From Escherichia phage vB_EcoM_KAW3E185, in the sequence record MK373782.1: DNA of 64,000 nt, one strand, 5' to 3'. This document shows positions 40,251 through 53,930 of this stretch, piece after piece. The notes under the pieces were generated by a model. It was given only the letters and a program-made list of their open reading frames with translations, ran no database searches and was not told the DNA's origin. Numbering within the stretch: position 1 is the stretch's first letter; every line of letters starts with the position of its first letter. Position numbers and translations under genes: made by a program.

Positions 40251-40275
40251 AAAAAAGGAACTCCGAAGAGTTCCT
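40251..40275 (-). terminator. terminator hairpin aggaactc-UUCG-gagttcct + U5
   Basis: 8-bp stem, UUCG loop, U-run on minus transcript; coordinates approximate. Confidence 0.55.
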
Positions 40276-40447: not shown

Positions 40448-40486
40448 GCATAAGCACCTCTCAGAAAATGCCTAAATCAATTTCTC

Positions 40487-40693: not shown

Positions 40694-40991
40694 TAATGAT
40701 GTCCTCAATAGCCTGACGAGTAGTAACCCACTGGATTTTAATTAACTTGTCATTATATGGTTGTCGTAGAATATCCCGAGATTTCTTAATAGCATATTCG
40801 TAAGCTTCGAAGTTGTTTTGAATTGCTGCTTCTTGAGCATGAGCATAAAGGCGGTTTAGTTCAAAACGATTCTTTTTAAGAATCTTTTCGGATTTTTTAC
40901 GTGCTTCAGCTTCATTTTTCTTTTGGATTTCTTGTAGCATTTTAGCTACTGCATCTTCTGTTTCTTTATTTTCAATAATCTCGGTAGTCAT
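40668..40991 (-). CDS. hypothetical protein (107 aa)
   Basis: ORF on gene strand. Confidence 0.45.
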   Translation of the reverse strand: MTTEIIENKETEDAVAKMLQEIQKKNEAEARKKSEKILKKNRFELNRLYAHAQEAAIQNNFEAYEYAIKKSRDILRQPYNDKLIKIQWVTTRQAIEDIINGASSNKV

Positions 40992-40992
40992 A

Positions 40993-41202
40993 TTATCTCA
41001 TTAAATTAAAATAAAAACGTCCATCCTCTTCAATACAGAACTCATACTCAACCGGAGTCCCATTTATCGAAAATGACACGTCATGTGGGTTCAAAGGGTC
41101 GATGTCAAAATTAATTTTAAATTCACGACCCAACAGTTTTACTAAATAAGGGATTGCTTCGTCAAAAGGTTCTTCTAAGTAGTTAGAGATGTCAATTGTC
41201 AT
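40993..41202 (-). CDS. small hypothetical protein (about 69 aa)
   Basis: Track ORF 40993-41286 overlaps gene 55; start chosen at an internal Met, uncertain. Confidence 0.3.
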
Positions 41203-41749
41203 CCTCATATAAAAAATCCAAACTAGGCGAATCGCTAACAACTTCCTTCTTTTCAGCCCCAGGAGCTTTATAAGCGGATTCTTCATAATGCGTCATTTTA
41301 TCGTAGATGTCTTGAATAAACGTTTCATCTACCAACGCTACCATATCATCGTCATGACTGTCGTAGACATTATGAACGAAGTAACTATATTTCTTTGCAA
41401 CTTCCTTACGTTCTTTTTTGATACGTTGGACAAAAGCATTAAAACAAGCTCGAGTTATGTATGCATGTGGGTTATTGTACTTAGTTTCGTCGAAATTATG
41501 AAGTCCCTTAATAGAGGCTTCAATCCCATCTGCAATCATCTCCTGCTTCCAAGACTGGGTATATCCTGAAAAGTTGAAACGTTTAGACAGGCCTTCGGCA
41601 ATAAGCATAATTGCTAAACCGATGGTATCATTCTGACGAATAATTTTGTTTGGGTCTTTATTATTTAAGAGCTCCTTTTTCCACTCGATTATAGCGGCGA
41701 GAAGCTCTTTATTATTCACATAGTTATTTTTAGGTTTTTGTTCAGTCAT
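41192..41749 (-). CDS. 55: late-transcription sigma factor gp55
   Basis: [21 protein letters not shown]...[36 protein letters not shown] matches T4 gp55 as I recall it; start chosen at Met7. Confidence 0.85.
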
Positions 41750-41770
41750 AAGTACCTCTTGGCTCAATTC

Positions 41771-41804
41771 ATAGGTCTATTATATCATAATATTTAGAGA
41801 CCTA
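41771..41804. repeat. inverted repeat ataggtct ... agacctat (8-bp arms, about 18-nt AT-rich spacer)
   Basis: Read directly just upstream of the gene 55 start; coordinates approximate. Confidence 0.4.
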
Positions 41805-41821
41805 TCTTAAAGCACGAGATA

Positions 41822-42091
41822 CTATCGGAGCAAACAATAAGCCTGAAACACCTTTTTCATTAAACGTTTGAACTCATAGATATCGATATAAAGCTCAGTA
41901 AGACCGGCGTTATAAAGAAAATCTAAAAAGTTCTCATGCGTTTCGTTATAGTCGCCTTCATTTAATTGAGATACATGAGTTTCCCAAAAACCAACACCTT
42001 TAACGAATGGAAAATACGTGACTTTCATGTATTCGTCAACATAAAATTCGCCCAGATTTTCTTCAGTTATACTGATTCGAGTTAATTTCAT
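41822..42091 (-). CDS. hypothetical protein (89 aa)
   Basis: ORF on gene strand, translationally coupled chain. Confidence 0.45.
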   Translation of the reverse strand: MKLTRISITEENLGEFYVDEYMKVTYFPFVKGVGFWETHVSQLNEGDYNETHENFLDFLYNAGLTELYIDIYEFKRLMKKVFQAYCLLR

Positions 42092-42315
42092 TCTAGTTCC
42101 TTTGCTGCTTCAAGAGCAGCATCCAGTGAATCAAATTGGTCAACGAAATCAATATTCAACGCATCGTCAGCCGTAGCATATAACCACCATTGTTTGAATT
42201 CGTATTCTAGGATAAATCCGGGCCCTTCAATCTGAGGAAGACCTAGGCTATTTGTACCAACTTCGTAACCAGCTAGACGCAGATCATTAATCAAAGTTTC
42301 TGTTAATACGCTCAT
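42088..42315 (-). CDS. hypothetical acidic protein (75 aa)
   Basis: ORF on gene strand. Confidence 0.45.
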   Translation of the reverse strand: MSVLTETLINDLRLAGYEVGTNSLGLPQIEGPGFILEYEFKQWWLYATADDALNIDFVDQFDSLDAALEAAKELE

Positions 42316-42644
42316 TTTACCGCCTTAACAATTTTTAAGTCAACGAATTTTTTCTTACGTTGATTTTTCATACGACGGATAGTCTTTTCAGAGATTTCAT
42401 GTTTCTGATAAGCTTTAGATTCAACACCAAATGCAGCAACGTCAAATTCAGAAAGAATATATTGTACTAGAATTTCACGAATAGAATTACGTCCAATTTT
42501 CTGGTCGTGTTTTTGCATGATTTCATAAAGACGGAATTCCAACGCATCAAGAACTTGAGGAGTAACAATATTGCCAGATTCCAGAAGAGCAACAACTTTA
42601 TCGAAAGCGAAAGAATTAACTACGTTTTTGATTTTAGTAGACAT
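42312..42644 (-). CDS. hypothetical protein (about 110 aa)
   Basis: Track ORF 42312-42674; start chosen at Met11 with GAGGAAA Shine-Dalgarno. Confidence 0.45.
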   Translation of the reverse strand: MSTKIKNVVNSFAFDKVVALLESGNIVTPQVLDALEFRLYEIMQKHDQKIGRNSIREILVQYILSEFDVAAFGVESKAYQKHEISEKTIRRMKNQRKKKFVDLKIVKAVK

Positions 42645-42710
42645 ATTATTTTCCTCGGTTATTTTATTATCCAACGAGAGAATTATACTCTGCTCTCAAG
42701 AGTTTGTATA

Positions 42711-42950
42711 CTATTTTTTAAGCATGAAAAGCAAGTAATTTGTATCGCGTGGAGTAATATCAACACCCATATCAAAGATGCCTTTATAGATTGGGTATTT
42801 GTTTTCGGTTGTATCGAAGCTGAAACTATTTCCATCACAACTAACAGTAATAGCATCTGTTAAAATGTCATACTCAATCCTAACAATTGAATCCCCAATT
42901 TTAACGTCGAGGTGTTTTTTGAATTTGATAAAATCTAATTCTTGGGCCAT
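42711..42950 (-). CDS. hypothetical protein (79 aa)
   Basis: ORF on gene strand. Confidence 0.45.
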   Translation of the reverse strand: MAQELDFIKFKKHLDVKIGDSIVRIEYDILTDAITVSCDGNSFSFDTTENKYPIYKGIFDMGVDITPRDTNYLLFMLKK

Positions 42951-43013
42951 GATATTTTCCTCATTTTAAGACGATAGGAAGATAATAACATGTCTTCCTA
43001 TCGTTGTACATTA

Positions 43014-43214
43014 TTAACCGAACTTTTTAGCGCCTTTCCAGCCTTCGTACATAACTGCACAAGTCAGTAGTACAGCGTGCTGGCATTCTTTGTATTTGTA
43101 AATCCAGAACCAGCGTAAGAAGTCTTCATCCTCAACGCCGTTGAGTTTCATATTGGCAAAGAATTCGGCACGTTCTTCACGAAGCTTTTGCGATAACATA
43201 GATTCAGGATTCAT
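43014..43214 (-). CDS. small hypothetical protein (66 aa)
   Basis: ORF on gene strand. Confidence 0.4.
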   Translation of the reverse strand: MNPESMLSQKLREERAEFFANMKLNGVEDEDFLRWFWIYKYKECQHAVLLTCAVMYEGWKGAKKFG

Positions 43215-43345
43215 TTTGTGTTCCAGGCCCCATTTTCATCGATGAACTTAATCCAGTCATTTACAGACCATTTAGTTGTATCACCCTTTGGATTAACATT
43301 TAAAGTATATAATCCCTGCTTAAAAAGCATTCGTTTGATATTCAT
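43211..43345 (-). CDS. small hypothetical protein (about 44 aa)
   Basis: Track ORF 43211-43438 overlaps its neighbour; start chosen at Met32 with GAGGA Shine-Dalgarno; uncertain. Confidence 0.3.
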   Translation of the reverse strand: MNIKRMLFKQGLYTLNVNPKGDTTKWSVNDWIKFIDENGAWNTK

Positions 43346-43352
43346 AATTTCC

Positions 43353-43646
43353 TCAACTGTAACGATAACATTCGTTAGCTTTACGTTTGGCTTCAGTATG
43401 AGAAGTATTATAATCATACTCTTCTTTACTGTAAACATCTTTTTTCAACTTACGAACTTCTTTGCGGAGTTGTCGATTCATTTCATTCTTGACTTCAGAA
43501 TCAACGCCTTTCATACGTTTCCATTTATCTGAGCGGAAGATGTTTTCAACCATGTCTTTGTGGCTAACACCGTCAGGAGCTTTACGCTTACCAAAATAGT
43601 CGTAATCGCGAACTTTCAAATCTTTACGACGATACGTTTTACCCAT
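43353..43646 (-). CDS. basic hypothetical protein (about 97 aa)
   Basis: Track ORF 43353-43673; start chosen at Met10 with GAGGT Shine-Dalgarno. Confidence 0.4.
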   Translation of the reverse strand: MGKTYRRKDLKVRDYDYFGKRKAPDGVSHKDMVENIFRSDKWKRMKGVDSEVKNEMNRQLRKEVRKLKKDVYSKEEYDYNTSHTEAKRKANECYRYS

Positions 43647-43653
43647 AAGTACC

Positions 43654-43902
43654 TCAGAGGTTGATTGATACAACGCGTTTGATAAAATTCACTTCACTTA
43701 CTGAAAGGTCTTTAAGACCGATTGATTCTAAACGCTGAGTAAGCGTCAACATCGGGATATAATCCCAATGAGTTTTAGTTGCTTGATAAGTACGAACTCC
43801 ATTAGCAATTTCAACGTTCAAATCGGAAATGGTAATGAATATCGGACGCTCGTCATTAACTTTAAGGGTTAGAACAACTTTCTTTGAATCTAAACTAATC
43901 AT
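43654..43902 (-). CDS. hypothetical protein (82 aa)
   Basis: ORF on gene strand. Confidence 0.45.
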   Translation of the reverse strand: MISLDSKKVVLTLKVNDERPIFITISDLNVEIANGVRTYQATKTHWDYIPMLTLTQRLESIGLKDLSVSEVNFIKRVVSINL

Positions 43903-44081
43903 GACTTAATTTCCTTCGCAATTGAACAGAAGATACCACGGTCACAAAGCATTTCACCAATTTCTGGATATTTGATTGAATGGTACCAAACATCCAGGCT
44001 TGAAACTCTGGTTATCTGTACTGCATTACCGTTGACAGAATAGTACTGGTCAACCTTAATTTCTTTATCTTCAATTGTCAT
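43899..44081 (-). CDS. small hypothetical protein (about 60 aa)
   Basis: Track ORF 43899-44243; start chosen at Met55 with GAGGAAA Shine-Dalgarno below the promoter. Confidence 0.4.
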   Translation of the reverse strand: MTIEDKEIKVDQYYSVNGNAVQITRVSSLDVWYHSIKYPEIGEMLCDRGIFCSIAKEIKS

Positions 44082-44109
44082 TTTATTTTCCTCTATAGTA
44101 GATGGTTTA

Positions 44110-44138
44110 ATCTTAACACATTTATTGAGGATGTAAAC
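44110..44138 (-). promoter_or_regulatory. early promoter (-35 GTTTAC, 17 nt, -10 TAAGAT)
   Basis: Hexamers on minus strand; coordinates approximate. Confidence 0.4.
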
Positions 44139-44247
44139 TGTTTTATGAAAATATTTTTTGATTTGAGAGGGGCACAAGGAGATAGTGAAGTGAAGATTCC
44201 AATGGATTATATTAGAAATGAGATAAAGAAGACCAGGCGGCACCTGG

Positions 44248-44700
44248 TCAATCTTCTATGATATCAGAGTCATATCCTAATGAAATCAAGGACTTTTTAA
44301 ACTCTGCAATATTCTTTTGTTTCTTATCATTTAAAAATATGACAGGATAACGAATATTAAGTGAAGTGAATCCTGCACGTTTAGCAAGAGATACGATTAA
44401 AGGACGGTCATATTCAATCTTACCATTATTAGTGAGGACTTTATAAAATGTATAAGGAGCATTGAGCTCCTTTAAAAGTTTTGTAACAGTATAACATCCT
44501 GGACAACGTCCAACTTCTTCAGGGATGCCATAAATTTCAATCTTGTTCTTTAAGTTCGAGTTTTGTTCCACGAGAAATAATTCCTTGGTAAGCCCAATAA
44601 GGAGGATTAACAGAATCCTCACCAGAGTTTTCTTCAGGAAAATAAACCTGGATAACGAAGCCGGATTCATCAAAGGTAAAATAAACCGTAGGCAATTCAC
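44248..44700 (-). CDS. glutaredoxin/NrdH-like redoxin (CPGC active site); true start probably internal
   Basis: EIYGIPEEVGRCPGCYTV thioredoxin-fold motif; 5' third of the track ORF overlaps the upstream gene and has no in-frame ATG near the expected start. Confidence 0.45.
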   Translation of the reverse strand: MNCLRFILPLMNPASLSRFIFLKKTLVRILLILLIGLTKELFLVEQNSNLKNKIEIYGIPEEVGRCPGCYTVTKLLKELNAPYTFYKVLTNNGKIEYDRPLIVSLAKRAGFTSLNIRYPVIFLNDKKQKNIAEFKKSLISLGYDSDIIED

Positions 44701-44854
44701 CTAACAATTCGGCACGAGCATTAATTTCTTCTAGATCTCGTTCACGTCCAGCCCAAAAACTAGGATTTAGATTACATTCGTAAAAATAATAGTCATTACC
44801 GAACATATCAAAACCCTTCCAACTCTCTACCACATACCGCTCAAAACTAATCAT
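44537..44854 (-). CDS. hypothetical protein (105 aa)
   Basis: ORF on gene strand. Confidence 0.45.
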   Translation of the reverse strand: MISFERYVVESWKGFDMFGNDYYFYECNLNPSFWAGRERDLEEINARAELLGELPTVYFTFDESGFVIQVYFPEENSGEDSVNPPYWAYQGIISRGTKLELKEQD

Positions 44855-44856
44855 AA

Positions 44857-45072
44857 TTAAGCCTTTTTATCAAGAACAGAATTCAGTTTATTAGTAATTT
44901 TGTCCAAACGTTCATTGAATTCGCTGGAGGATAAACCCTTTTCTGGAGAAATTAAACTAATCACGAAAAATACACCAGTAAAAGGAATAAGAAAAATAGC
45001 TCCAACTGCCATAAACAGAAAGAATGTTACAGTTGTAAGAAAATCAGCTAAACCTTTACGAAATTTATACAT
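44857..45072 (-). CDS. small membrane protein (71 aa)
   Basis: Hydrophobic segments FFLFMAVGAIFLIPFTGVFFVISLI. Confidence 0.45.
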   Translation of the reverse strand: MYKFRKGLADFLTTVTFFLFMAVGAIFLIPFTGVFFVISLISPEKGLSSSEFNERLDKITNKLNSVLDKKA

Positions 45073-45084
45073 TTACATTTACCT

Positions 45085-45198
45085 TTAATTGATTAACCAA
45101 GCATTGATAATCATTAAACTATATTGCGAATAAAATTCTGGACCAAAACGAAAAATCATATCATTTATAGTATCCATAATGTAATTCAATTTAATCAT
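45085..45198 (-). CDS. small hypothetical protein (about 37 aa)
   Basis: Track ORF 45085-45309 overlaps nrdG; start chosen at the Met overlapping the nrdG stop; uncertain. Confidence 0.25.
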   Translation of the reverse strand: MIKLNYIMDTINDMIFRFGPEFYSQYSLMIINAWLIN

Positions 45199-45661
45199 GT
45201 TTCCACACCCCATCGGTATTTGACCAAAGTCGCTGATTATCTGATCCTCGCCACAGCTTTTTAGTCGGAAGATTTTTCTCATACTTCCCATCAATAATAA
45301 CATCAACATATTTAAGCATTTCTAGTTGTTTAATATCTTCAAACTTATATCCTGTCCACAACCAAATGCTTTTATTGGGATAAAGATTTTTTACTGTTTG
45401 AGCAATGCGATGAATAACATCTCGGTTATCAGGATAGAGAGGGTCTCCTCCGGTTATAGTTAATCCTTCTATATAATCATTATTCAAACATTCAATCAAT
45501 TGTTCTAGTGTCTCTCCAGTGAATGGAATACCATTTCTAGCATTCCATGTTGATTTATTATAACACCCTTCACATTTATGCAAACAACCTGTAACGAAAA
45601 GAACGACCCTGCATCCAGGGCCATTCACAAAGCAGCACGGGTATATTCTGTCATAATTCAT
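45191..45661 (-). CDS. nrdG: anaerobic ribonucleotide reductase activating protein NrdG (radical SAM)
   Basis: CxxxCxxC cluster motif CLHKCEGC; start chosen at Met8 because the first listed codon is not ATG. Confidence 0.8.
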   Translation of the reverse strand: MNYDRIYPCCFVNGPGCRVVLFVTGCLHKCEGCYNKSTWNARNGIPFTGETLEQLIECLNNDYIEGLTITGGDPLYPDNRDVIHRIAQTVKNLYPNKSIWLWTGYKFEDIKQLEMLKYVDVIIDGKYEKNLPTKKLWRGSDNQRLWSNTDGVWKHD

Positions 45662-46488
45662 AATAATATCCAATTTTTCCAAGCTTCATCAGTAGAATTA
45701 CAGCGTTTTAGTATAAGATGTCTAGAAACTTTTATGGCATTTGAGCACTTTTTAATTGAATCATACTTAATACCGTCAACTGAAACGGTTTTGCTAGTTG
45801 GAGAAATTTTTCCATACATTGGATTTTTTGAACCAACTTGAAGTCCTTTTAAAGCTTTTGAAAGCTTTTGTCTAGATTCCAATGACATGGGAGAATTCTT
45901 TTTACCTTCAATAATTCGCTTGCGATGAAGTTCGCGTTCTTCTTCACTCAAAGAATTGTAATATTTTTTAACACCGTTTGATATAGATAATTTATCTTTC
46001 TCAGACCGCTCTCCAGCTAATTTACTTCTAACATCTTTTCGCTTCATAGCTATGCTTACGGCTTTATTTAAATTTGCTTGATGCTCTGGCGTACGTTTAT
46101 ATTTCTTTAAAGCACGTGAAATAGCTATTTTAGTTTCTTCTGTTCTCTTTTTACCTTTATTTGCTAAACTATTTTTGCGGCGATGTTCAAGTGTCTGTTC
46201 ATAGGCAGTTCCACCTTTTCCACCAGGTTTAATATTATATGTATTTTCTTTTAGACAATACTCTTCGGTTACGAGTTCAGCTTCTTTATCATACATTTGC
46301 TTTTCATTATCAAAAACATATAAAATTTCTTTATAAAAATTTTTTCTACCATATTTTAATAAAGCAGCACGAATCAATGTTCCTGATCCCATATAACCGT
46401 CATTTATGTTATCGGTGCTATGCGCACCGATATATTCCTTTGAATTAATTATATTTGTTATTTTATAAATTATATAATACCTATGCAT
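45658..46488 (-). CDS. free-standing GIY-YIG homing endonuclease (Seg/Mob-like), 276 aa
   Basis: N-terminal YIIYKITN...KEYIGAHS GIY-YIG motif; repeated basic helix (NUMOD-like) modules; stop overlaps the nrdG start. Confidence 0.7.
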   Translation of the reverse strand: MHRYYIIYKITNIINSKEYIGAHSTDNINDGYMGSGTLIRAALLKYGRKNFYKEILYVFDNEKQMYDKEAELVTEEYCLKENTYNIKPGGKGGTAYEQTLEHRRKNSLANKGKKRTEETKIAISRALKKYKRTPEHQANLNKAVSIAMKRKDVRSKLAGERSEKDKLSISNGVKKYYNSLSEEERELHRKRIIEGKKNSPMSLESRQKLSKALKGLQVGSKNPMYGKISPTSKTVSVDGIKYDSIKKCSNAIKVSRHLILKRCNSTDEAWKNWILL

Positions 46489-47760
46489 GTTTTACTCGTT
46501 TTACCATTTCTTTCATTTTACCTAAATTCCATGGGACAACGCTAGGAGTTCCAAGATATCCGCATGTTCTTCTTATGGTATTCATCTTTTTAGGATCAGT
46601 TTCTCCACAAATAGAACAAACAAATCCGTTTTCAGTAGGAGTCATTTCATGGGTACTTCCACATGTAAAACATTTATCCACTGGCATATTAACACCAAAA
46701 TAATCTAAATGTTGTGCAGCATAATCCCAGACGGCCTCAAGCCCCTTTAAATTGTTTTTCATATCTGGAAGTTCAACATAAGAAATGTGACCGCCTGTCG
46801 CAATGAAATGATATGGGGCTTCGCGAGAAATCTTTTCAAACGGAGTGATATTTTCTTCTACTGAAACATGGAAACTGTTAGTGTACCATCCTTTATCGGT
46901 AACATCTTTTACACTTCCATATTTTTCAGTATCAAGTTTACAGAAGCGATAGCAAAGGTTTTCAGCAGGAGTAGAATACAAGCTAAAAGCAAAACCGGTT
47001 CTTTCGGTCCACTGCTTAAGACGAGCATTCATTTTAGTTAAAATTTCTTGTCCAATATCACGACCGACAAGAATATTCAATTCGTGAATACCGATGTATC
47101 CTAGGGACACTGAACTTCTACCGTTTTTAAATAACTCAATTATATCATCATCAGGTTTAAGACGGACCCCAAATGCACCTTCTTGGTAAAGAATAGGAGC
47201 AACAGTAGCTTTAACTCCTTTTAAGGAACTAATTCTACACATCAAGGCTTCAAAGCACAGATCCATTCGTTCATTAAATAACTCAACAAATTTCTGTTCA
47301 TTGAACTGTGTTCCAATATAAGAATCTAACGCGATGCGAGGAAGATTCAGTGTTACAACGCCAAGATTATTACGTCCATCAAGAATTTCATTACCAGTCG
47401 AATCTTTCCATACACTCAAGAAACTACGGCAGCCCATTGGAGAAACAGGAACTGAAGAACCGGTAATAGCTTTATTATTCTTAACCGAAATAATGTCAGG
47501 ATACATTCTTTTGCTTGCACATTCTAACGCAAGTTGTTTAATATCATAGTTCGGATCATCTTTATAAAGATTAACACCTTCTTCAACAAACATAACAAGT
47601 TTAGGAAAAATAGGAGTTATTCCATCACGACCAAGACCTTTAATGCGGTTTTTAAGAATTGCCTTCTGAATCATTCGTTCAGTCCAGTCAGTTCCCGTAC
47701 CAAATGTAATTGTTACAAAAGGCGTTTGTCCGTTTGAACTAAAGAGAGTATTTACTTCAT
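46481..47760 (-). CDS. nrdD: anaerobic ribonucleoside-triphosphate reductase NrdD, exon 2
   Basis: C-terminal glycyl-radical motif RRTCGYLG and Cys cluster CFTCGS...CSICG; exon boundary placed so that the spliced product is 605 aa. Confidence 0.8.
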
Positions 47761-48805
47761 CATTATATTCAGCATGAGTCGCAAATTCATGCTCGTTTAT
47801 ATGAAACAACAAAATTTGGATAGTCCATAGATATGCAACGTTCTTTTATAGTGCTAGGATGAAAATTTAGCGCTTTAGCTGCTTCTATATAAGACGTATA
47901 CTTAATACCGTCAACAACCACATATTCAGGAACTTTATGAATAGTAGTCTTAATACTCAAAACAAGAGGATGAGTTTCGACTTCACTTTCAGTGCAATTT
48001 AAATATTCCGCTGCTTTTTTAAAACTTCTAAAAGTTTTATTTTTAAGCTTTATCGATACTTGTTTTTTACTTTTTCGACTATTGATATTATTTTGCACAT
48101 GTTCCTTAGATCTTCCGTTTTTAGCATAATATTCAGCTACAGAAGATTTTATATTGTTTTTATGAGATTCGGATAACACTTTACCCTTATGAGCATCTCT
48201 TAATTTTTGAATATGTTCTTCAGTATCCGGATGCTTATAAAACTTTTTACCGCCTATGGATTTATTTAAACATTTTTTGCTATAAAAATATTTACGTATG
48301 ACCTCTTCTTCATGTTTTAATGCATCTTTATAACTATCAAATGTTTTTAAAATTATCCATTTAGTAGGTGTATCAGTTTTTAAGCGTTCATTTATATACT
48401 TAGATGACGTTGTGTAAGTTTTCCAGTTTGTGGGCTTATTTTTAATTGTTCTAAATTTTTTATAACCGATATAAATGTCGCCATTAGAAAACTTAACTAA
48501 GTATGTAAATGCGTCTTTATCTTTTATTTTAGTACAACGTCTTTTTATCCATTTCATTGTTTCACCTCGTATTCATAAGATAATCTTATTTATACAAGAT
48601 GACTGCTGCATGTCGCCATGCAGATTAGACTATATCTTCATCTTTCGATGCCGGCCGTTTCGAATAGCATTAGCTTCTATTCTACACCGCTACATTCATC
48701 ACGGTTAGTCGTTAGGCATTTAGTTCAAAAGAACATTTAGCACGGGATTGTCTACTAGAGAGGTTCCCCGTTTAGACCGGTTTTACATGAGCCTGAATTA
48801 AATTA
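47761..48805 (-). mobile_element. group I intron in nrdD (about 1045 nt) carrying a homing-endonuclease ORF
   Basis: nrdD reading frame is interrupted; exon 1 ends in U and the intron ends in G; GC-rich conserved core CUAAACGGGGAACCUCUCUAGUAGACAAUCCCGUGCUAAAU; splicing restores ...AFQAYE-YEVNTLF... Confidence 0.65.
47787..48557 (-). CDS. intron-encoded GIY-YIG homing endonuclease (I-TevII-like), 256 aa
   Basis: FTYLVKFSNGDIYIGYKKF GIY-YIG motif; located entirely within the nrdD intron. Confidence 0.7.
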   Translation of the reverse strand: MKWIKRRCTKIKDKDAFTYLVKFSNGDIYIGYKKFRTIKNKPTNWKTYTTSSKYINERLKTDTPTKWIILKTFDSYKDALKHEEEVIRKYFYSKKCLNKSIGGKKFYKHPDTEEHIQKLRDAHKGKVLSESHKNNIKSSVAEYYAKNGRSKEHVQNNINSRKSKKQVSIKLKNKTFRSFKKAAEYLNCTESEVETHPLVLSIKTTIHKVPEYVVVDGIKYTSYIEAAKALNFHPSTIKERCISMDYPNFVVSYKRA

Positions 48806-49343
48806 ACTCATACGCCTGGAATGCGTCATAGACATCTTTTTCTGTTTTAGATTGAGCATAATTCAACGCATCAGCGATTTGCCATTTTTCTGCATCCTCA
48901 ATATGTTTTGCATAGGTGCGTTTAACATAAGGAGAAAGTACTTTATCTACATTAGCAAAAGTCGTTCCGCCGTATTGATGGGAAGCAACTTGTGCAGTAA
49001 TTTGTGCCATAATTGCAGTAGCAACACCAATAGATTTAGGCGTTTCAATTTGAGCATTGCCTAATTTAAATCCATTCTCAAGCATCCCCTTTAAATCGAC
49101 TAAACAGCAATTGGTAAACGGAAGAGCAGGAGAATAATCAATATCATGCATGTGAATGATTCCGCGTTCATGCGCATTCATAATAAAAGACGGGACCATA
49201 TTTTTGGCAATGTGTTTAGACACAATACCAGCCATAAGGTCCCGTTGAGTTGGAAAAACACGAGAATCTTTATTAGCATTCTCGTTCAAAAGATCTTTAT
49301 TAGTTTTATAAATTAATCCTTCAATTTCTTTTTCAATTTTCAT
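48806..49343 (-). CDS. nrdD: anaerobic ribonucleoside-triphosphate reductase NrdD, exon 1
   Basis: N-terminal NrdD sequence MKIEKEIEGLIYKTNKDLL...; the track ORF runs 3 codons into the intron before a stop. Confidence 0.8.
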
Positions 49344-49813
49344 TTTAAACTCTTTCTAAGCTGCTTTTTGAATGAAGCTATTAATTGTGTTTTAGTATCG
49401 GATTCATTATATTCAAATCCTCTTTGAAGCATCTCGGACATCATTTCCTCTTTACCTAGTCTTGAGAACTCTTTAGTTTTGTCTGGAACAAAATTAGGAT
49501 GGATATTATTATCAGAATAATCTTGTTTCAAATAAGCAAGAAGAGATTCAAGCCATTCGAGGTAATCAACGTTTTGACCTTTAAGACCAGAACGGTTGAA
49601 CTTATGCTTCATTTGACCTTCTGCTGTGTTGCACAGATTACAGAGTAACCCACGAACTCTACCGGCTTTTGGCCCGTTTAATTCGTGGTCGTGGTCAAGA
49701 TGGTTACCTTGAACATCAGGGTCTAATTCACGGTGGCAAATAGGACACTTACCGTTCTGTGCATCATAAAATTTTTGTTTTTCTTCTTTATATTTTGCGC
49801 CTGATAATAACAT
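49340..49813 (-). CDS. 49: endonuclease VII (Holliday junction resolvase) gp49, 157 aa
   Basis: Zinc-binding CPICHRE...HLDHDHELNG...CNLCN matches T4 endo VII as I recall it. Confidence 0.9.
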   Translation of the reverse strand: MLLSGAKYKEEKQKFYDAQNGKCPICHRELDPDVQGNHLDHDHELNGPKAGRVRGLLCNLCNTAEGQMKHKFNRSGLKGQNVDYLEWLESLLAYLKQDYSDNNIHPNFVPDKTKEFSRLGKEEMMSEMLQRGFEYNESDTKTQLIASFKKQLRKSLK

Positions 49814-49848
49814 GATAAACCCTTACCTTAAATAGATAAGGGTATTTA

Positions 49849-50274
49849 TTAACTTAAACGTCTTTCTAAATATTCAATGTATTCTGCGGCTGCTTGCATC
49901 AGGTTACCTTCATAGCCGTCGTTATTTTCTTGTCCGGCTAATTTAGCTAATGCATAAGAAATTCGTTCACCTTCGAATTCGCCAAGTTTACTACCTAGCA
50001 CATCCGCAATATCAGCCGAATCAATTTCTTCGAGTTCATCTATTGAATGTGATTCCCAGAAGCACCAAAGAGAAGTATCACGGTCATAGATGCAAAGTTT
50101 CTCACCAGTGTTCAACATCACTTCAATAATGCCATGGTCGCCATAACCATCTTCGGTCGTAGTACCAATTACCTTGATGATTGTTCCTTTCTTTAATTCA
50201 GGAAACTTGACTTGTAGTTCTTCATCTTCTTTAACAATCTTGAACCATTTACCACGTGTGTCAGAAATATTCAT
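49849..50274 (-). CDS. hypothetical acidic protein (141 aa) at the pin position
   Basis: Positional only. Confidence 0.4.
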   Translation of the reverse strand: MNISDTRGKWFKIVKEDEELQVKFPELKKGTIIKVIGTTTEDGYGDHGIIEVMLNTGEKLCIYDRDTSLWCFWESHSIDELEEIDSADIADVLGSKLGEFEGERISYALAKLAGQENNDGYEGNLMQAAAEYIEYLERRLS

Positions 50275-50275
50275 A

Positions 50276-50473
50276 TCAATATCCTCTATAAAAGTTGCGA
50301 TGCGTGCGTTTCGCTTTGCGAAGCTGACGTTTAGTTGGTCGAACCGTAAATGGTCGTCCGGAGAAAAAATTTGGTTCAGTTTTAATCAACACATACCAAT
50401 CGTGTTCGCCACTTTTTAATAAACGGTATAACAATTTAACTTGCATAATAATCTCTTCCCATTTCCAAATCAA
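50276..50473 (-). CDS. small protein with basic RPTKRQLR tail (65 aa)
   Basis: Tail motif FTVRPTKRQLRKAKR shared with ORF 19965-20177. Confidence 0.45.
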   Translation of the reverse strand: MIWKWEEIIMQVKLLYRLLKSGEHDWYVLIKTEPNFFSGRPFTVRPTKRQLRKAKRTHRNFYRGY

Positions 50474-50574
50474 TCATATCGTTTACTGTAGGTTCATCAT
50501 AACACGTTTCTTCGTCGTTGTAAACTGTTTCGACGTCTGGCTCGACAGTTTCCCATCGAGCCGAATACCATGGC

Positions 50575-50931
50575 TTAACCCCGGAGTTTATTGAGCTCTT
50601 CATAATCAATCCAGGATTCTAGCCCTGACGGCAGGTCACATTCAATGTTCCACAGAAGCTCTTCAATGGCTTGCAGGCGATTATATTCTTCAACGGTAAT
50701 GGTAACCATTGGTGCAACCGGTTCTGCCTTTTTAACCATCATGTCGTTCATCAGGACGTAAAGGTCATCACGAACGACAGTGTCGTTCCAACCCCATGAT
50801 TTGGCTTCGTAAGCTAATGATGAAGGGAGCACATTTAAAACTTCAATAATAGTTGGAGCATCAGGACCAAGTTCATTGGCACAAACTTCGTATACATCTT
50901 GGAAATCTTTAAGATTTAATGAATATGTCAT
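50575..50931 (-). CDS. hypothetical protein (118 aa)
   Basis: ORF on gene strand; stop overlaps the nrdC start region. Confidence 0.45.
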   Translation of the reverse strand: MTYSLNLKDFQDVYEVCANELGPDAPTIIEVLNVLPSSLAYEAKSWGWNDTVVRDDLYVLMNDMMVKKAEPVAPMVTITVEEYNRLQAIEELLWNIECDLPSGLESWIDYEELNKLRG

Positions 50932-51191
50932 TTAAAATATTCTCGCAGTTGGTCAAATCCACCAATATGACTTCCATCAGGAGCAAATACCTGAGGCATA
51001 GTCAATCCAACTTGTGATTCACGTCCTAGTTTATTCAGAAGCTCGTCAATTTTTTCTTCATCAAATACACCTTTCTCTGGCATCACGTTAATGAATTCGA
51101 ACGGCTGTTTCTTAACAGTCAGCAATCGTTTCGCATTATCACAATAAATGCATTTATGAATAGTAGAGTCATACCCGTACACTTTAAACAT
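50928..51191 (-). CDS. nrdC: thioredoxin NrdC
   Basis: MFKVYGYDSTIHKCIYCDNAKRLL (CxYC active site) matches T4 NrdC as I recall it; start chosen at Met7. Confidence 0.85.
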   Translation of the reverse strand: MFKVYGYDSTIHKCIYCDNAKRLLTVKKQPFEFINVMPEKGVFDEEKIDELLNKLGRESQVGLTMPQVFAPDGSHIGGFDQLREYFK

Positions 51192-51597
51192 TATTTTTCC
51201 TTTCATCAATTAAATATGCAATGCCAAATACAATACATGTAATAAAACCTGTGATACAGATAGAAACCAACAACACTGTACCAAAGAACCAAATCAAGTT
51301 ATCTTTAGTAGTTTGTTTGATATCCATCTCACGAATTTCTATAGCTATCGTATCACCTTTATTCAGAAGCGTATAAAACGATGGCGATACACGCCTGTCA
51401 AAAACTCGTCCTTGCTCATCTTTATAGACTGCAATAAATTCTAATTTAGAATATTTTCCTGTAGATTGACCTGAGATTAGCTCTACTACCTCCACAGGAA
51501 TTACTTTAGTTTCCATGTAAGTATTTTGGCTGTTCCAAATGAATGGAATAATAGCAAAAACTAAAGCTGCGATAAAACAACGAAGGCTATATCTCAT
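51184..51597 (-). CDS. membrane protein (137 aa, N- and C-terminal hydrophobic helices)
   Basis: Hydrophobic segments at both ends. Confidence 0.45.
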   Translation of the reverse strand: MRYSLRCFIAALVFAIIPFIWNSQNTYMETKVIPVEVVELISGQSTGKYSKLEFIAVYKDEQGRVFDRRVSPSFYTLLNKGDTIAIEIREMDIKQTTKDNLIWFFGTVLLVSICITGFITCIVFGIAYLIDERKNNV

Positions 51598-51902
51598 TAT
51601 AATGTTCTCTCAAATTTGTGGAAGCATTTACGGCATTTCAATTTCAAGTTATCAGTGGTCCAGTTAACCAGTTGGACTTGGATAGTTCCACATTCCGGGC
51701 ATGGATGTTTTGCTGCCGATTTGGCAGCATTTTCACGTCGTTCAACCATTTTCATTATTTCGTTCCATGCCGGAGGAACGAACTCTTCTTCACCGTGGAT
51801 TTTATCTCGCTGAACAAATTCAATCTTTGAACTATCGTCAATAAACTTAACCAAGCGGTGATTAGTGCTCATATCAATATCCTCTAAAAGGCGTAGTTTC
51901 AT
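51597..51902 (-). CDS. zinc-ribbon protein (101 aa)
   Basis: CPECG...CRKC motif pair. Confidence 0.45.
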   Translation of the reverse strand: MKLRLLEDIDMSTNHRLVKFIDDSSKIEFVQRDKIHGEEEFVPPAWNEIMKMVERRENAAKSAAKHPCPECGTIQVQLVNWTTDNLKLKCRKCFHKFERTL

Positions 51903-52852
51903 TATAACACCTCAATGGCATTTCGTAAACCATCCGCTTTCGCATTCAGAGCTTTTAACGATTTAGTTTGTTCTGCAATCTGGGCTTCGACTTCTTTCAG
52001 ACGAGATTTGAGATATTCGCGTTCTTCTCTTAAGTTATCAACTTTTTCTGCTTTAGGCTCTTTAATAGACTTAGGCTTATACTCGTTAGGGTTCTTCAAC
52101 TTAATTTGAATGCGAGAACTGTATAACATTGAACCATTATCTTCGGTTTCATCATACATTTCTACCACGTCCATGATTCTTAACATCATGCGAAGTTTAT
52201 AAGACAGCGAACGAATGGTTTTATTGTGCTTCTTAATTTCTTCAACTTTCATGGTGCCGAGATTACGTGAGTAATAATAAGGAACCTGAATATCAATTGA
52301 TAATGATGCGGTACCATTACCGGTTGGTTTGAACACTGCAGTAACCCAATCTTTAGCATGAACTGTATTTGTACGATCATCGCCGCCTGTGAATAATTTA
52401 CGAGAATGTTTAAAAAGCATATTCACTTGGTTATTGAATTCACAAGCAAATTTATCAGCAAATTTAGTTTCAGGAATGGTAGTTAACCAATCAGCCAAAT
52501 GAGTCTTTTTAACATCATTAACAATAGTGAATTCAACCAAATCGGTTTTAGATGTCACAGATTTAATAAAGCTCGGCTTCATAAAGTTTTTAATGTTATC
52601 GCGAGCTACAGTAGAAGATAATAAACGAGAACGTTTGAACCATTGAAGCAGTGTCCCTAATGAATGAGAATATGCATTTTGAGTATCTTTACAGATATGA
52701 TTTTCTTGGCCTATGTATGTACCAAAATCTCGAAGAATACCACTTACTACATCTCGGTGTGGAACATCAAATCCTAGTACACCAGAAGCACGTTGGGCAT
52801 GAACGTTAGCGATAAGACCTGCAAAGTATTCAATGTAATGTGAACGTGTCAT
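51902..52852 (-). CDS. hypothetical protein with C-terminal coiled coil (316 aa)
   Basis: Heptad-like C-terminus; own early promoter. Confidence 0.5.
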   Translation of the reverse strand: MTRSHYIEYFAGLIANVHAQRASGVLGFDVPHRDVVSGILRDFGTYIGQENHICKDTQNAYSHSLGTLLQWFKRSRLLSSTVARDNIKNFMKPSFIKSVTSKTDLVEFTIVNDVKKTHLADWLTTIPETKFADKFACEFNNQVNMLFKHSRKLFTGGDDRTNTVHAKDWVTAVFKPTGNGTASLSIDIQVPYYYSRNLGTMKVEEIKKHNKTIRSLSYKLRMMLRIMDVVEMYDETEDNGSMLYSSRIQIKLKNPNEYKPKSIKEPKAEKVDNLREEREYLKSRLKEVEAQIAEQTKSLKALNAKADGLRNAIEVL

Positions 52853-52880
52853 AATATTTTCCTCTCGTTAAGATAAATTC

Positions 52881-52910
52881 ATTATACTCCAACCATCCTT
52901 GGTTGTAAAC
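52881..52910 (-). promoter_or_regulatory. early promoter (-35 GTTTAC, 18 nt, -10 TATAAT), cassette family A
   Basis: Same 30-bp cassette as at 8910-8939; coordinates approximate. Confidence 0.5.
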
Positions 52911-52914
52911 TGAT

Positions 52915-53874
52915 TTATGATTTTAACGCATTCATTGCGTTAAAAAGTTTAGAATACTGCAACTGGAGATTCGTTACAACACTTTGAGCATCACGAAGCT
53001 TAGCTTGTGCTTTGTCAAGTTCAACAGACAGTTGGTCCATAGTGGCCTTGATTTGATTGTAATGGTAATCTTCGGCCGGAAGAAGGTCATTAGAAACATT
53101 TAGTTTTACTGCAGACAGTTTGCACACATTTGGCAAACCTTTAAACATTGATTTACCCGAAGTAGAATAAGCACTTAGGACTTCGGCCTGTTCAATTGGG
53201 GTCCCAGTAAGCGATGCTTCAAACAATGCATTTTCCTTTTTAAGATTTTGATAGTATTCAGAGTCTTTGTGCCACCATGGCGCAGGAACCTTTTTACCAA
53301 TAGATACACGAGCCTGGATAGCGATATTGCCCTTATTCTTGATAGGGTCGATAATATTAAGCTCACGAGAATAAATTGCTTTAATCTGGTGAATATTATC
53401 ACCTAACACTTCCAACGCTTGGTGGAATACACGAGCAACGTTATCATTCTTAGGTTTATACGTAAGAGTGAACTCGTTCTCACTGATAACCATGATTTCC
53501 AACTTATCGTAAGTATATTTCAAATGTTTCATGTTAATTGCTTGAGGACGAATACGAGAAGCAATGGCCATCAGATTGTTAAGGTTATTCCGGAACTGCT
53601 TAGCGAAATATTGTCCTTCACCGCCAATACAAAAATTACGAAGTTTCTGTTTGGCCAATAAACGGCTGAACTCGCCATTTTTAATGAACTCTTTAACGGG
53701 TGTGTTAGTAACGCATTCAAATTGAGTAAACTTACGAGAATTAATCCCATAATACGAACAGATTTCCTCAATCTCTTCAGGAGTCTTTACAGGCATACGG
53801 ATAGGATTAGGTCCTGGAGTATATGCGTTCGAGGTAAATTCTTTGATAAGTTCTCTACGTGTAATAAAAGCCAT
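52915..53874 (-). CDS. hypothetical protein with C-terminal coiled coil (319 aa)
   Basis: Heptad-like C-terminus; own early promoter. Confidence 0.5.
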   Translation of the reverse strand: MAFITRRELIKEFTSNAYTPGPNPIRMPVKTPEEIEEICSYYGINSRKFTQFECVTNTPVKEFIKNGEFSRLLAKQKLRNFCIGGEGQYFAKQFRNNLNNLMAIASRIRPQAINMKHLKYTYDKLEIMVISENEFTLTYKPKNDNVARVFHQALEVLGDNIHQIKAIYSRELNIIDPIKNKGNIAIQARVSIGKKVPAPWWHKDSEYYQNLKKENALFEASLTGTPIEQAEVLSAYSTSGKSMFKGLPNVCKLSAVKLNVSNDLLPAEDYHYNQIKATMDQLSVELDKAQAKLRDAQSVVTNLQLQYSKLFNAMNALKS

Positions 53875-53900
53875 TTTATATTCCTCATGTTGAAAAATTT

Positions 53901-53930
53901 ATTATACTCCAACCATCCTTGGTTGTACAT
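53901..53930 (-). promoter_or_regulatory. early promoter (-10 TATAAT; -35 GTACA-like), cassette family A
   Basis: Near-copy of the 8910/52881 cassette; coordinates approximate. Confidence 0.45.

What the first reader, a model, noticed from the sequence alone, without database searches (positions are those of the whole stretch)
46481..49343. nrdD is interrupted by a group I intron carrying a GIY-YIG homing endonuclease
The NrdD reading frame breaks after ...DAFQAYE and resumes about 1045 nt later at ...EVNTLFSS. Exon 1 ends in U and the intron ends in G. Joining the exons recreates the codon TAT and a 605-aa product with the glycyl-radical motif. The intervening sequence contains a GC-rich conserved group I core and a 256-aa GIY-YIG endonuclease ORF (47787-48557). 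This is a mobile intron like the T4 nrdD/sunY intron.
Basis: partly seen in the sequence, partly recalled or inferred. Interest (0 to 1): 0.5.

Follow-up and report, generated by a model that had tools for sequence, protein, structure and literature searches.

The report
Mobile group I intron in phage nrdD

Summary
On the minus strand, nrdD exon 1 is 49343..48806, the intron is 48805..47761 (1045 nt) and exon 2 is 47760..46481. Joining the exons gives a stop-free 605-aa NrdD.

A targeted Rfam scan finds the group I model above its gathering score (68.2 bits against 50). Whole-window scans miss it. Pairing in P3-P9 holds across seven related phage introns (99.5% of cells paired, 10 of 29 pairs with compensatory changes).

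The 256-aa ORF is a full-length homologue of T4 I-TevII (56% identity). The intron sits at the T4 insertion site, with the T4-like late promoter, an RBS-hiding hairpin and a terminal hairpin.

It is not the T4 allele. The intron is about 68% identical to T4's while the exons are 92-93% identical. The same allele occurs at 99-100% identity in about 44 GenBank phages of two genera. An intronless relative (NicPhage) differs from the spliced gene at only four bases beside the insertion site, which is a homing footprint.

A 42-nt core segment is identical to the T4 td intron, which hints at exchange between introns.

Verdict: interpretation supported. This is a known kind of element already present in databases, so interest is low. 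Splicing and cleavage are inferred, not shown.

The parts
48806..49343 (-). nrdD exon 1 (538 nt: 179 codons plus the first base of Tyr180)
   Evidence: ORF list. Pfam NRDD at 138.7 bits, profile positions 1-141. Same length as T4 exon 1.
47761..48805 (-). Group I intron, 1045 nt, phase 1, TAATTT...ATAATG
   Evidence: Sequence. Joining the exons gives an open 605-aa frame. 620 of 689 phage records have an uninterrupted junction at exactly this point.
48606..48805 (-). Ribozyme core, P1 (3' strand) through P9
   Evidence: RF00028 at 68.2 bits against a gathering score of 50 over 48829..48606. Helix-by-helix parse in 7 related introns. Covariation count.
48787..48793 (-). Internal guide sequence GGCUCAU. 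It pairs with exon-1 AUGAGU, giving U.G at the splice site. UUCA just 5' of it (48794..48797) can pair with exon-2 UGAA (P10).
   Evidence: Read from the sequence. All 6 intron-bearing alleles examined have G at exon position -2, which pairs with the C of the guide. All 7 intronless alleles have A there.
48735..48776 (-). 42-nt segment (P3 3' end, J3/4, P4, P5, P4', P6 5' strand) that is 100% identical to nt 43-84 of the T4 td intron
   Evidence: The T4 nrdD intron differs in this stretch (alignment).
48562..48602 (-). P9.1 hairpin that sequesters the endonuclease's Shine-Dalgarno sequence (GAGG)
   Evidence: Fold at -17.8 kcal/mol, z -4.45, 0 of 200 shuffles as good. The T4 counterpart folds at -16.3 kcal/mol. 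Coordinates.
48587..48594 (-). T4-type late promoter motif TATAAATA, inside the 5' half of the hairpin
   Evidence: Sequence. Same motif at the same place in T4. Its role is described for I-TevII in PMC2988022.
47787..48557 (-). Homing endonuclease gene, 256 aa, an I-TevII homologue (GIY-YIG N-terminal domain, NUMOD1 C-terminal module)
   Evidence: Pfam SegE_GIY-YIG at 26.6 bits (cut-off 25) and NUMOD1 at 25.3 bits (cut-off 22.8). 56% identity to T4 I-TevII over 257 aa. PHROG 314 'homing endonuclease'.
47771..47793 (-). Terminal hairpin (P9.2-like), AGCAUGA/UCAUGCU with loop AUUUGCGAC. Its 5' strand contains the endonuclease stop codon.
   Evidence: Fold. T4 has a hairpin at the same place with a completely different stem and a similar GCGA-containing loop.
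47761..47770 (-). 3' tail GAAUAUAAUG ending in the terminal G (omega-G)
   Evidence: Sequence. Similar tails are GAACAUAAUG in the td and Vequintavirus introns and GAACACAUUG in T4 nrdD.
46481..47760 (-). nrdD exon 2 (425 codons plus stop). It carries the glycyl-radical domain and the motif RRTCGYLG.
   Evidence: Pfam NRDD at 411.9 bits (profile positions 145-562) and Gly_radical at 88.4 bits. Translation.

Best explanation
This is a mobile, self-splicing group I intron (phage IA2-type architecture with P7.1 and P7.2). It is inserted in phase 1 of Tyr180 of the anaerobic ribonucleotide reductase gene nrdD of a T4-like (Mosigvirus-like) phage. It sits at the same site as the T4 nrdD/sunY intron but is a distinct, diverged allele.

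Splicing (inferred from the anatomy and from the T4 homologue). The nrdD pre-mRNA folds so that exon-1 AUGAGU pairs with the guide GGCUCAU, giving a U.G pair at the splice site. A free guanosine bound at P7 (GACUA/UAGUC) attacks after U48806. The freed exon-1 3'-OH then attacks after the terminal G at 47761, helped by P10 (UGAA/UUCA). The result is an mRNA for a 605-aa NrdD.

Endonuclease expression (inferred). The 256-aa I-TevII-like endonuclease gene lies between P9.1 and the terminal hairpin. On early transcripts its ribosome-binding site is buried in P9.1. A late promoter (TATAAATA) inside that hairpin yields a shorter RNA with the site exposed, so the enzyme is made late.

Homing. The enzyme is inferred to cut intronless nrdD alleles of co-infecting phages near the insertion site. 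Double-strand-break repair then copies the intron plus a few flanking exon bases.

What is shown here: the anatomy, the covariation, homology to the characterised T4 element, and the population footprint of spread. What is inferred: splicing, timing of expression and cleavage.
For: Ribozyme:
- RF00028 matches at 68.2 bits against a gathering score of 50.
- In 7 related phage introns, P3, P4, P5, P6a, P7.1, P7.2 and P8 all keep pairing with different sequences, while P7 and P9 are conserved.
- On 29 pairs, 99.5% of cells are paired and 10 pairs change on both sides. The covariation score is 0.369 against 0.140 in shuffles (0 of 500 reach it). Slid controls pair at 29-40%.

Splice sites:
- The joined frame is open and collinear with the 605-aa uninterrupted NrdD of NicPhage (593 of 605 residues identical) and of T4.

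Endonuclease:
- 56% identity to I-TevII over its full length.
- Pfam SegE_GIY-YIG and NUMOD1 are both above their cut-offs.
- The protein is 99.6-100% conserved in 40 phage records.

Regulation:
- The RBS hairpin folds at -17.8 kcal/mol with z -4.45, and TATAAATA lies inside it, as in T4 (PMC2988022).

Mobility:
- 620 of 689 records lack the intron.
- The intron is 99-100% identical in the window, in G2285 (Mosigvirus) and in LH2 (Tequatrovirus), while the adjoining exons are 85-98% identical.
- Against intronless NicPhage, the spliced CDS differs at only 42 of 1818 nt. Four of these lie at -11, -8, -2 and +2 around the insertion site. The other 38 lie in the last 262 nt, next to the segH insertion.
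- G at -2, which pairs with the guide, is found in all 6 intron-bearing alleles and in none of the 7 intronless alleles.
Against: - No experiment was done, so neither splicing nor endonuclease activity is shown for this allele.
- T4 nrdD is dispensable under aerobic laboratory growth (my own knowledge), so a splicing defect could in principle persist.
- P5 is only 3 bp in this allele and does not fold on its own.
- The GIY-YIG Pfam score is only just above its cut-off (26.6 against 25). No solved structure is detectable by sequence.
- The co-conversion tract is very short. Exon 2 from +3 onward is identical to the intronless alleles, so the footprint rests on four bases plus the allele-wide pattern.
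- Default Rfam scans miss the element.
Confidence: 0.93

Rival explanations
1. nrdD is a genuinely split gene. A homing endonuclease cassette inserted into it, and the two halves are translated separately (as in Aeromonas phage Aeh1 nrdA split by mobE), with no RNA splicing.
For: Most GenBank records with this allele annotate two separate nrdD CDSs plus a 'homing endonuclease'. The exon-2 ORF can be extended upstream to a TTG at 47812. Split, intron-less RNR genes do exist in phages (PMC3653736).
Against: A 200-nt ribozyme core scores above the Rfam gathering threshold, and its helices covary. The boundaries restore one codon exactly and carry U.G at the 5' splice site and G at the intron end. 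The exon base at -2 tracks intron presence in the way P1 pairing requires. The homologous T4 element at the same site is a proven self-splicing intron (PMC2988022). The TTG extension lies inside the endonuclease ORF and encodes no NrdD sequence.
Confidence: 0.03
2. The element is a decaying relic. The intron still splices but the endonuclease is inactive, or the reverse, so it is no longer mobile and persists only by descent.
For: Degenerate copies exist. The ORF is broken into two pieces in phages F1 and FN. The T4-type ORF is truncated in U5. T4's own nrdB intron carries a defective endonuclease (PMC1865063).
Against: In this window the ORF is intact, and it is 100% identical at the protein level to at least 15 other phages. 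The intron is 99-100% identical across two genera whose flanking DNA differs by 5-30%. It sits in a backbone that is otherwise almost identical to an intronless phage. Both facts point to recent lateral spread rather than vertical decay.
Confidence: 0.06
3. It is simply the T4 nrdD intron and I-TevII, the same allele as in phage T4.
For: The gene, insertion site, ORF position, ORF family and regulatory motifs are all the same.
Against: This was tested and not met. The intron is about 68% identical to T4's while the exons are 92-93% identical, and it is 1045 nt against 1033 nt. The protein is only 56% identical. tblastn splits the family into two clean groups, 44 records at 95% or more and about two dozen T4-type records at about 56%, with nothing between.
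Confidence: 0.01

Closest known systems
Phage T4 nrdD (sunY) group I intron with I-TevII
   Same: - Same host gene and the same insertion point (after nt 538, phase 1 of Tyr180).
- Same P1 guide core (GCUCAU) with U.G at the splice site.
- No P2, and P7.1/P7.2 are present.
- The ORF lies after P9, between an RBS-sequestering hairpin that carries a TATAAATA late promoter and a terminal hairpin with a GCGA-containing loop.
- The ORF products are homologous end to end.
   Different: - The intron is about 68% identical overall, and about 74% in the core.
- The protein is 56% identical.
- P3, P4, P6a, P7.1, P7.2, P8 and the terminal hairpin all have different sequences, with compensatory changes.
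- P7.2 is longer, with an AAGCUAAUG loop like that of the Vequintavirus, Vibrio and Aeromonas phage introns.
- There is an 11-nt insertion in the RBS hairpin loop.
- The co-travelling exon markers differ. This allele carries G at -11 and -8, whereas the T4 type carries six changes at +8..+20.
Phage T4 td group I intron with I-TevI
   Same: It belongs to the same phage intron family, with the same P7 and P9 sequences. A 42-nt stretch (P4-P5 and flanks) is 100% identical to the window's intron. Its endonuclease is also of the GIY-YIG family.
   Different: - The host gene differs (thymidylate synthase).
- It has a P2.
- The ORF sits in the P6 loop, not after P9.
- I-TevI shares only the catalytic-domain motifs (19% identity in the N-terminal alignment).
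nrdD introns of Vequintavirus (EPFV3) and Vibrio phages (1.084.O, F96)
   Same: The ribozyme cores are 71-78% identical to the window's, about as close as the T4 nrdD intron is. The P7.1 sequence is identical and P7.2 has the same loop type. They also interrupt nrdD.
   Different: They are inserted at other positions in nrdD (exon 1 is 389 aa in EPFV3). The ORF sits in the P6 loop and encodes unrelated proteins (winged-helix or HNH).
Free-standing homing endonuclease splitting an RNR gene (Aeh1 mobE in nrdA)
   Same: An RNR gene is annotated as two CDSs with an endonuclease gene between them (PMC3653736).
   Different: That case has no ribozyme and the halves are translated separately. Here a complete, covarying group I core flanks the ORF.

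Membership tests
Group I intron (Rfam RF00028) | Match to the family covariance model at or above the curated gathering score | tested here: met
   68.2 bits against a gathering score of 50, E 1.6e-17, model positions 1-253 of 253, window 48829..48606. The match appears only when 291 nt are scanned. Scans of 64 kb at the gathering threshold and of 3.2 kb at E-value 10 found nothing.
Group I intron (Rfam RF00028) | P1 formed by the exon-1 end and an internal guide sequence, with U.G at the 5' splice site, and a terminal G at the 3' end | tested here: met
   Exon AUGAGU pairs with intron GGCUCAU (13-19). The last intron base is G at 47761. Exon position -2 is G in all 6 intron-bearing alleles and A in all 7 intronless alleles.
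Group I intron (Rfam RF00028) | Conserved core helices P3-P8, including the P3/P7 pseudoknot, supported by covariation | tested here: met
   29 pairs in P3, P4, P5, P6, P7 and P9 were counted over 7 introns. 99.5% of cells are paired and 10 pairs change on both sides. 0 of 500 shuffles reach the score, and slid controls pair at 29-40%. P6a, P7.1, P7.2 and P8 form hairpins in every sequence despite different sequences. There are only 7 sequences, and the structure was drawn from the window's own sequence.
Group I intron (Rfam RF00028) | Guanosine-dependent self-splicing | not testable with these tools
   This needs an in-vitro splicing or RT-PCR experiment. It is shown for the T4 homologue in the literature (PMC2988022).
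T4 nrdD/sunY intron lineage | Same insertion site in nrdD | tested here: met
   Exon 1 is 538 nt and exon 2 is 1280 nt in both. The junction is GAGT|ATGAAG in both.
T4 nrdD/sunY intron lineage | ORF placed 3' of the core, between the P9.1 RBS hairpin and a terminal hairpin, and encoding an I-TevII homologue | tested here: met
T4 nrdD/sunY intron lineage | Same allele as T4 (near-identical sequence) | tested here: not met
   About 68% nucleotide identity across the intron against 92-93% in the exons. The protein is 56% identical. There are two discrete groups in GenBank phages.
GIY-YIG homing endonuclease | N-terminal GIY-YIG-type catalytic domain recognised by a curated profile | tested here: met
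   Pfam PF19835 SegE_GIY-YIG at 26.6 bits against a cut-off of 25, residues 9-86. This is marginal. In a 5-protein alignment with I-TevII, I-TevI, SegH and SegF, the Y-x-G of the second motif and an Asn (N98) are invariant. The alignment of the first motif and of the Arg is unreliable.
GIY-YIG homing endonuclease | Homology to an experimentally characterised family member | tested here: met
   56% identity to T4 I-TevII over 257 aa, E 1e-101. I-TevII is listed as an active GIY-YIG enzyme in PMC2988022, Table 1.
GIY-YIG homing endonuclease | Separate C-terminal DNA-binding modules | tested here: met
   NUMOD1 at 25.3 bits against a cut-off of 22.8, residues 171-193.
GIY-YIG homing endonuclease | GIY-YIG fold and site-specific cleavage of the intronless allele | not tested
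   No PDB relative is detectable by sequence. I did not run a structure prediction, and cleavage needs an experiment.
Mobile (homing) element | Sporadic presence, identity far higher than in the flanking DNA, and co-conversion of flanking markers | tested here: met
   620 of 689 records are intronless. The intron is 99-100% identical against 85-98% in the exons, across two genera. Four substitutions lie within 11 nt of the site against NicPhage, in an otherwise identical 1.5-kb stretch.
Class III ribonucleotide reductase NrdD | NRDD and glycyl-radical domains in a single collinear product after exon joining | tested here: met
   Pfam NRDD covers profile positions 1-141 and 145-562, and Gly_radical scores 88.4 bits. 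593 of 605 residues are identical to the uninterrupted NicPhage NrdD.

The most novel reading that the evidence does not exclude
The allele in this window is a second, so far uncharacterised lineage of the nrdD intron, and it is a natural mosaic.

- Its endonuclease and ORF-flanking hairpins are of the I-TevII type.
- Its P4-P5 module is identical to the td intron.
- Its P7.1/P7.2 domain is of the type seen in Vequintavirus, Vibrio and Aeromonas phage introns.

Under this reading it would be direct natural evidence that phage group I introns exchange ribozyme modules. It would also give a 56%-identical I-TevII variant, possibly with altered target preference, that is now spreading across Tequatrovirus and Mosigvirus more successfully than the T4 allele (44 records against about 24).
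Probability: 0.4. Interest if true: 0.3.

Novelty: already known. Interest (0 to 1): 0.15.

Why it matters
The finding matters mainly for annotation. Most GenBank records with this allele list nrdD as two separate genes. A default Rfam scan of the window finds no intron, so such elements are easily missed or misread as pseudogenes.

Biologically it is a clean natural example of homing. The same intron occurs at 99-100% identity in two phage genera. Here it sits in a backbone nearly identical to an intronless phage, with a four-base co-conversion footprint and an exon base that tracks the intron's guide sequence.

The 42-nt identity with the td intron and the mosaic core are a modest lead on module exchange between introns. 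None of this changes what is known about how such elements work.

Tried and rejected
- Rfam on the whole window at the gathering threshold, and on 46300..49500 at E-value up to 10, found no group I hit. I traced this to the speed filters, because a 291-nt scan scores 68.2 bits.
- phmmer of the endonuclease against PDB sequences found nothing, even at E-value 10.
- The MAFFT alignment of seven intron cores (A1) misaligns P6a, P7.1, P7.2 and P8. I therefore restricted the formal pair count to helices aligned without gaps. The others were assessed by anchored parsing and per-sequence folding. A first version of the parser mis-parsed one Vibrio sequence and split P7.1, and I corrected it.
- I tested similarity between the homing site and the region upstream of the ORF, the putative autorepression operator proposed for I-TevII in PMC2988022. 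It is 13 of 17 bases here and 14 of 17 in T4, at the same place. On its own it is not significant for this allele (59 of 500 shuffles score as well). I note it but do not rely on it.
- I first thought the +2 exon base (T here, C in NicPhage) was intron-linked through P10. The wider table shows other intronless alleles also have T, so only -2 is intron-linked.
- The two key papers on T-even intron distribution (J Biol Chem 2004) and on SegH (Nucleic Acids Res 2005) are not in the held library. What I say about them rests on my own knowledge and on their citation in PMC2988022 and PMC2993671. Searches for a description of this particular allele found none.
- A search for papers on sunY structure and intron domain shuffling returned noise.
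- I did not run a structure prediction or the large protein-database searches. The 56% full-length match to I-TevII already settles the family, and they would not have changed the verdict.
- Motif searches for a second group I core in the window (GATATAGTCT, AACGACTA) found only this one co-occurrence.
Full report
**What is there**

The region lies in a block of T4-type genes on the minus strand. In order these are endonuclease VII (49813..49340), nrdD, a small endonuclease gene, and nrdG.

The NrdD frame opens at 49343 and runs into a stop just after ...DAFQAYE. NrdD sequence resumes at ...EVNTLFSS in the ORF that ends at 46481. A 256-aa ORF (48557..47787) lies between them.

Reading the DNA and joining it fixes the following coordinates:
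- Exon 1 is 49343..48806 (538 nt, ending in T).
- The intron is 48805..47761 (1045 nt, TAATTT...ATAATG).
- Exon 2 is 47760..46481.

The joined CDS is 1818 nt and encodes 605 aa with no internal stop. Codon 180 is rebuilt as TAT. Pfam places NRDD profile positions 1-141 on exon 1 and 145-562 on exon 2, together with the glycyl-radical domain.

The junction is also defined without any model. A 400-nt query of joined exons aligns uninterrupted in 620 of 689 phage records. In intron-bearing records it breaks exactly at position 200/201.

**Is it a group I intron?**

The obvious test nearly fails. Rfam on the whole window at gathering thresholds returns nothing. A 3.2-kb scan at E-value up to 10 returns only a spurious snoRNA hit.

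Scanning 291 nt around the 5' part of the insert gives RF00028 (Intron_gpI) at 68.2 bits against a gathering score of 50. The E-value is 1.6e-17, the match covers the full model, and it lies at 48829..48606 on the minus strand. The misses are filter artefacts.

I then collected related cores found by BLAST:
- the T4 nrdD and td introns;
- nrdD introns of a Vequintavirus and of two Vibrio phages;

Parsing each sequence between invariant junctions gives a consistent picture. P3, P4, P5, P6a, P7.1, P7.2 and P8 all form in every sequence, although their sequences differ. For example, P3 is CCGGUC/GGCCGG here and UCUGCC/GGCAGA in T4 nrdD. P8 is CAUC/GAUG here and CAACUC/GAGUUG in T4 nrdD. P7 (GACUA/UAGUC) and P9 are conserved.

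A formal count on the 29 pairs that MAFFT aligned cleanly gives these results:
- 99.5% of cells are paired.
- 10 pairs have changes on both sides.
- The covariation score is 0.369 against 0.140 in shuffles, and 0 of 500 shuffles reach it.
- Only 29-40% of cells pair when the 3' partners are slid by 1-3 columns.

Two caveats apply. There are only seven sequences, and the structure was drawn from the window's own sequence.

P1 pairs exon AUGAGU with intron GGCUCAU, giving U.G at the splice site. The intron ends in G. UUCA next to the guide can pair with exon-2 UGAA (P10).

**The ORF**

The 256-aa product aligns end to end with T4 I-TevII at 56% identity and E 1e-101. It passes Pfam's SegE_GIY-YIG cut-off (26.6 bits against 25) and its NUMOD1 cut-off (25.3 against 22.8). 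It falls in PHROG 314 'homing endonuclease', together with I-TevII.

An alignment with I-TevII, I-TevI, SegH and SegF keeps the Y-x-G of the second motif and an Asn invariant. It does not align the first motif reliably. No solved structure is detectable by sequence.

I-TevII is listed as an active GIY-YIG enzyme that mobilises the T4 nrdD intron (PMC2988022).

**Regulatory anatomy matches T4**

Immediately after P9 lies a 41-nt hairpin (48602..48562). It folds at -17.8 kcal/mol with z -4.45 and buries the GAGG ribosome-binding site. A T4 late-promoter motif, TATAAATA (48594..48587), sits in its 5' half. T4 has the same arrangement at -16.3 kcal/mol.

The ORF's stop codon lies in the 5' strand of a terminal hairpin (47793..47771). 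Its stem is entirely different from T4's, but the GCGA-containing loop is retained. The ORF therefore lies after the core, between P9.1 and a P9.2-like hairpin, as in T4. In the Vequintavirus, Vibrio and td introns the ORF sits in the P6 loop instead.

**It is not the T4 allele**

Against T4, the exons are 93.5% and 91.6% identical, but the intron is only about 68% identical. The intron is 1045 nt here against 1033 nt in T4.

tblastn with the endonuclease splits GenBank phages into two discrete groups:
- 44 records at 95% or more, all inside nrdD;
- about two dozen at about 56%. These are the T4 strains, RB55, RB59, PST, fPS-2 and G8, plus a truncated copy in U5.

The ribozyme core is about as far from T4's nrdD core (74%) as from nrdD introns at other sites in Vequintavirus and Vibrio phages (71-78%).

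Within the core, intron nt 30-71 (48776..48735) are 42 of 42 identical to nt 43-84 of the T4 td intron. This stretch includes the unpaired P5 loop. The T4 nrdD intron differs from both there.

Laboratory recombination between T4 introns at shared core elements has been reported (Bryk and Belfort, Nature 1990; cited from my own knowledge). A natural exchange between td and nrdD introns in a phage carrying both is a reasonable reading of this patch, but I have not demonstrated it.

I found no paper in the held library that describes this allele. The sequence itself is in many GenBank genomes, usually annotated as two nrdD CDSs plus a 'homing endonuclease'.

**Evidence that it moves**

The window's flanks match the Mosigvirus G2285 at 95-97%. 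They match the Tequatroviruses LH2 and T4 at only 70-85%. Yet the intron is 99-100% identical in the window, in G2285 and in LH2, while the adjoining exons are a mosaic of 85-98% identity.

The intronless Mosigvirus NicPhage has an uninterrupted 605-aa nrdD followed directly by nrdG. The window's spliced CDS differs from it at 42 of 1818 nt. Four of these lie at -11, -8, -2 and +2 relative to the insertion site. The remaining 38 all lie in the last 262 nt, next to a second inserted gene. These look like two short co-conversion tracts in a NicPhage-like backbone.

A table of 13 alleles shows the following:
- G at -2, which pairs with the C of the guide, occurs in all six intron-bearing alleles of both types. 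None of the seven intronless alleles has it; they all have A. The change is synonymous (GAA to GAG).
- G at -11 and -8 travels only with this allele. G at -8 could extend P1 by a G.U pair.
- The T4-type alleles share six changes at +8..+20.
- The window's exon 2 from +3 onward is identical to the intronless alleles, so its 3' tract is at most a dozen bases.

Degenerate copies also exist. The ORF is broken in phages F1 and FN and truncated in U5. This fits the usual cycle of invasion and decay.

**Mechanism and confidence**

The best explanation, at about 0.93, has three parts:
- a late-expressed I-TevII-type endonuclease cuts intronless alleles in co-infecting phages;
- repair of the break then copies the intron in.

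The anatomy, the covariation, the homology and the population footprint are shown here. Splicing, expression timing and cleavage are inferred from the T4 homologue.

The rivals are weak:
- A non-spliced split gene (0.03) is contradicted by the ribozyme and the exact codon restoration.
- A decaying, immobile relic (0.06) is contradicted by the intact, widely identical ORF and the cross-genus identity.
- 'The T4 allele itself' is refuted by the alignments.

**Comparison and novelty**

This is the same kind of element as the T4 nrdD/sunY intron with I-TevII, at the same site. It is a sister allele that is already present, though poorly annotated, in about 44 public phage genomes.

I rate it 'already known' as a kind, with low interest (0.15).

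The most novel reading still open is that this allele is a natural mosaic of intron modules and carries an I-TevII variant of possibly different specificity. I put that at about 0.4 probability and modest interest.

Noticed in passing
window 45658..46488 (minus strand): A 276-aa free-standing GIY-YIG-type endonuclease gene lies between nrdD and nrdG. It overlaps the nrdD stop by 8 nt and the nrdG start in an ATGA overlap. It is 99.3% identical to the protein annotated 'segH' in phage PP01. It carries NUMOD3 and an I-TevI-type DNA-binding domain. T4 has the HNH gene mobC at this position, while NicPhage and G2285 have nothing there.
   Followed up: yes
window 46481..46742 (3' end of nrdD exon 2): 38 of the 42 differences between the window's spliced nrdD and that of intronless NicPhage are packed into the last 262 nt, next to segH. 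This region is 93-98% identical to the segH-bearing phage LH2. It looks like the co-conversion tract of a separate segH homing event.
   Followed up: partly
window 1..64000 (method): Rfam cmscan with default filters misses this intron in a 64-kb scan and in a 3.2-kb scan. The same sequence scores 68.2 bits (gathering score 50) when 291 nt are scanned. Negative whole-window Rfam results for group I introns should not be trusted.
   Followed up: yes
window 48735..48776: A 42-nt stretch of the nrdD intron core is 100% identical to the td intron of T4, RB3, T6 and many other phages. The T4 nrdD intron differs there. This may be a gene-conversion patch between introns.
   Followed up: partly
window 41761..54805 against L003, L004 and L002: The window's backbone is Mosigvirus-like: 95-97% identical to G2285 and near-identical in nrdD to NicPhage. 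It is only 70-85% identical to Tequatrovirus LH2 and T4. The intron and segH region, however, is shared with Tequatroviruses, so there is local mosaicism around two homing elements.
   Followed up: partly
L010 about 1990..2372 (Aeromonas phage 2L372D); L009 about 1999..2748 (Vequintavirus EPFV3); L007 and L008 (Vibrio phages): Homologous group I cores interrupt other phage genes that are annotated as split CDSs. One is an ORF-less intron in the large terminase gene of 2L372D. Others are nrdD introns at other sites, carrying winged-helix or HNH ORFs in the P6 loop. Vibrio phage F96 nrdD appears to hold two such insertions.
   Followed up: partly
window 45601..45626 (minus strand): A terminator-like hairpin (11 pairs, followed by UUUUCGUU) lies inside the first 60 nt of the nrdG coding sequence, just downstream of segH. 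I did not check whether it is conserved in segH-less phages.
   Followed up: no
window 48555..48575 against the exon junction: The sequence around the endonuclease RBS (TATGAATACGAGGTGAA) resembles the intronless homing site (TATGAGT|ATGAAGTAAA) at 13 of 17 positions. T4 shows 14 of 17 at the same place. This is the putative autorepression operator proposed for I-TevII. For this allele it is not significant on its own (59 of 500 shuffles).
   Followed up: partly
public records (L012, L014): There are annotation oddities in the comparison records. The T6 genome AP018814.1 labels its nrdD 'RNA ligase 1 and tail fiber attachment catalyst'. The 171-kb T4-like phage ST2 is filed under Kagunavirus.
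   Followed up: no
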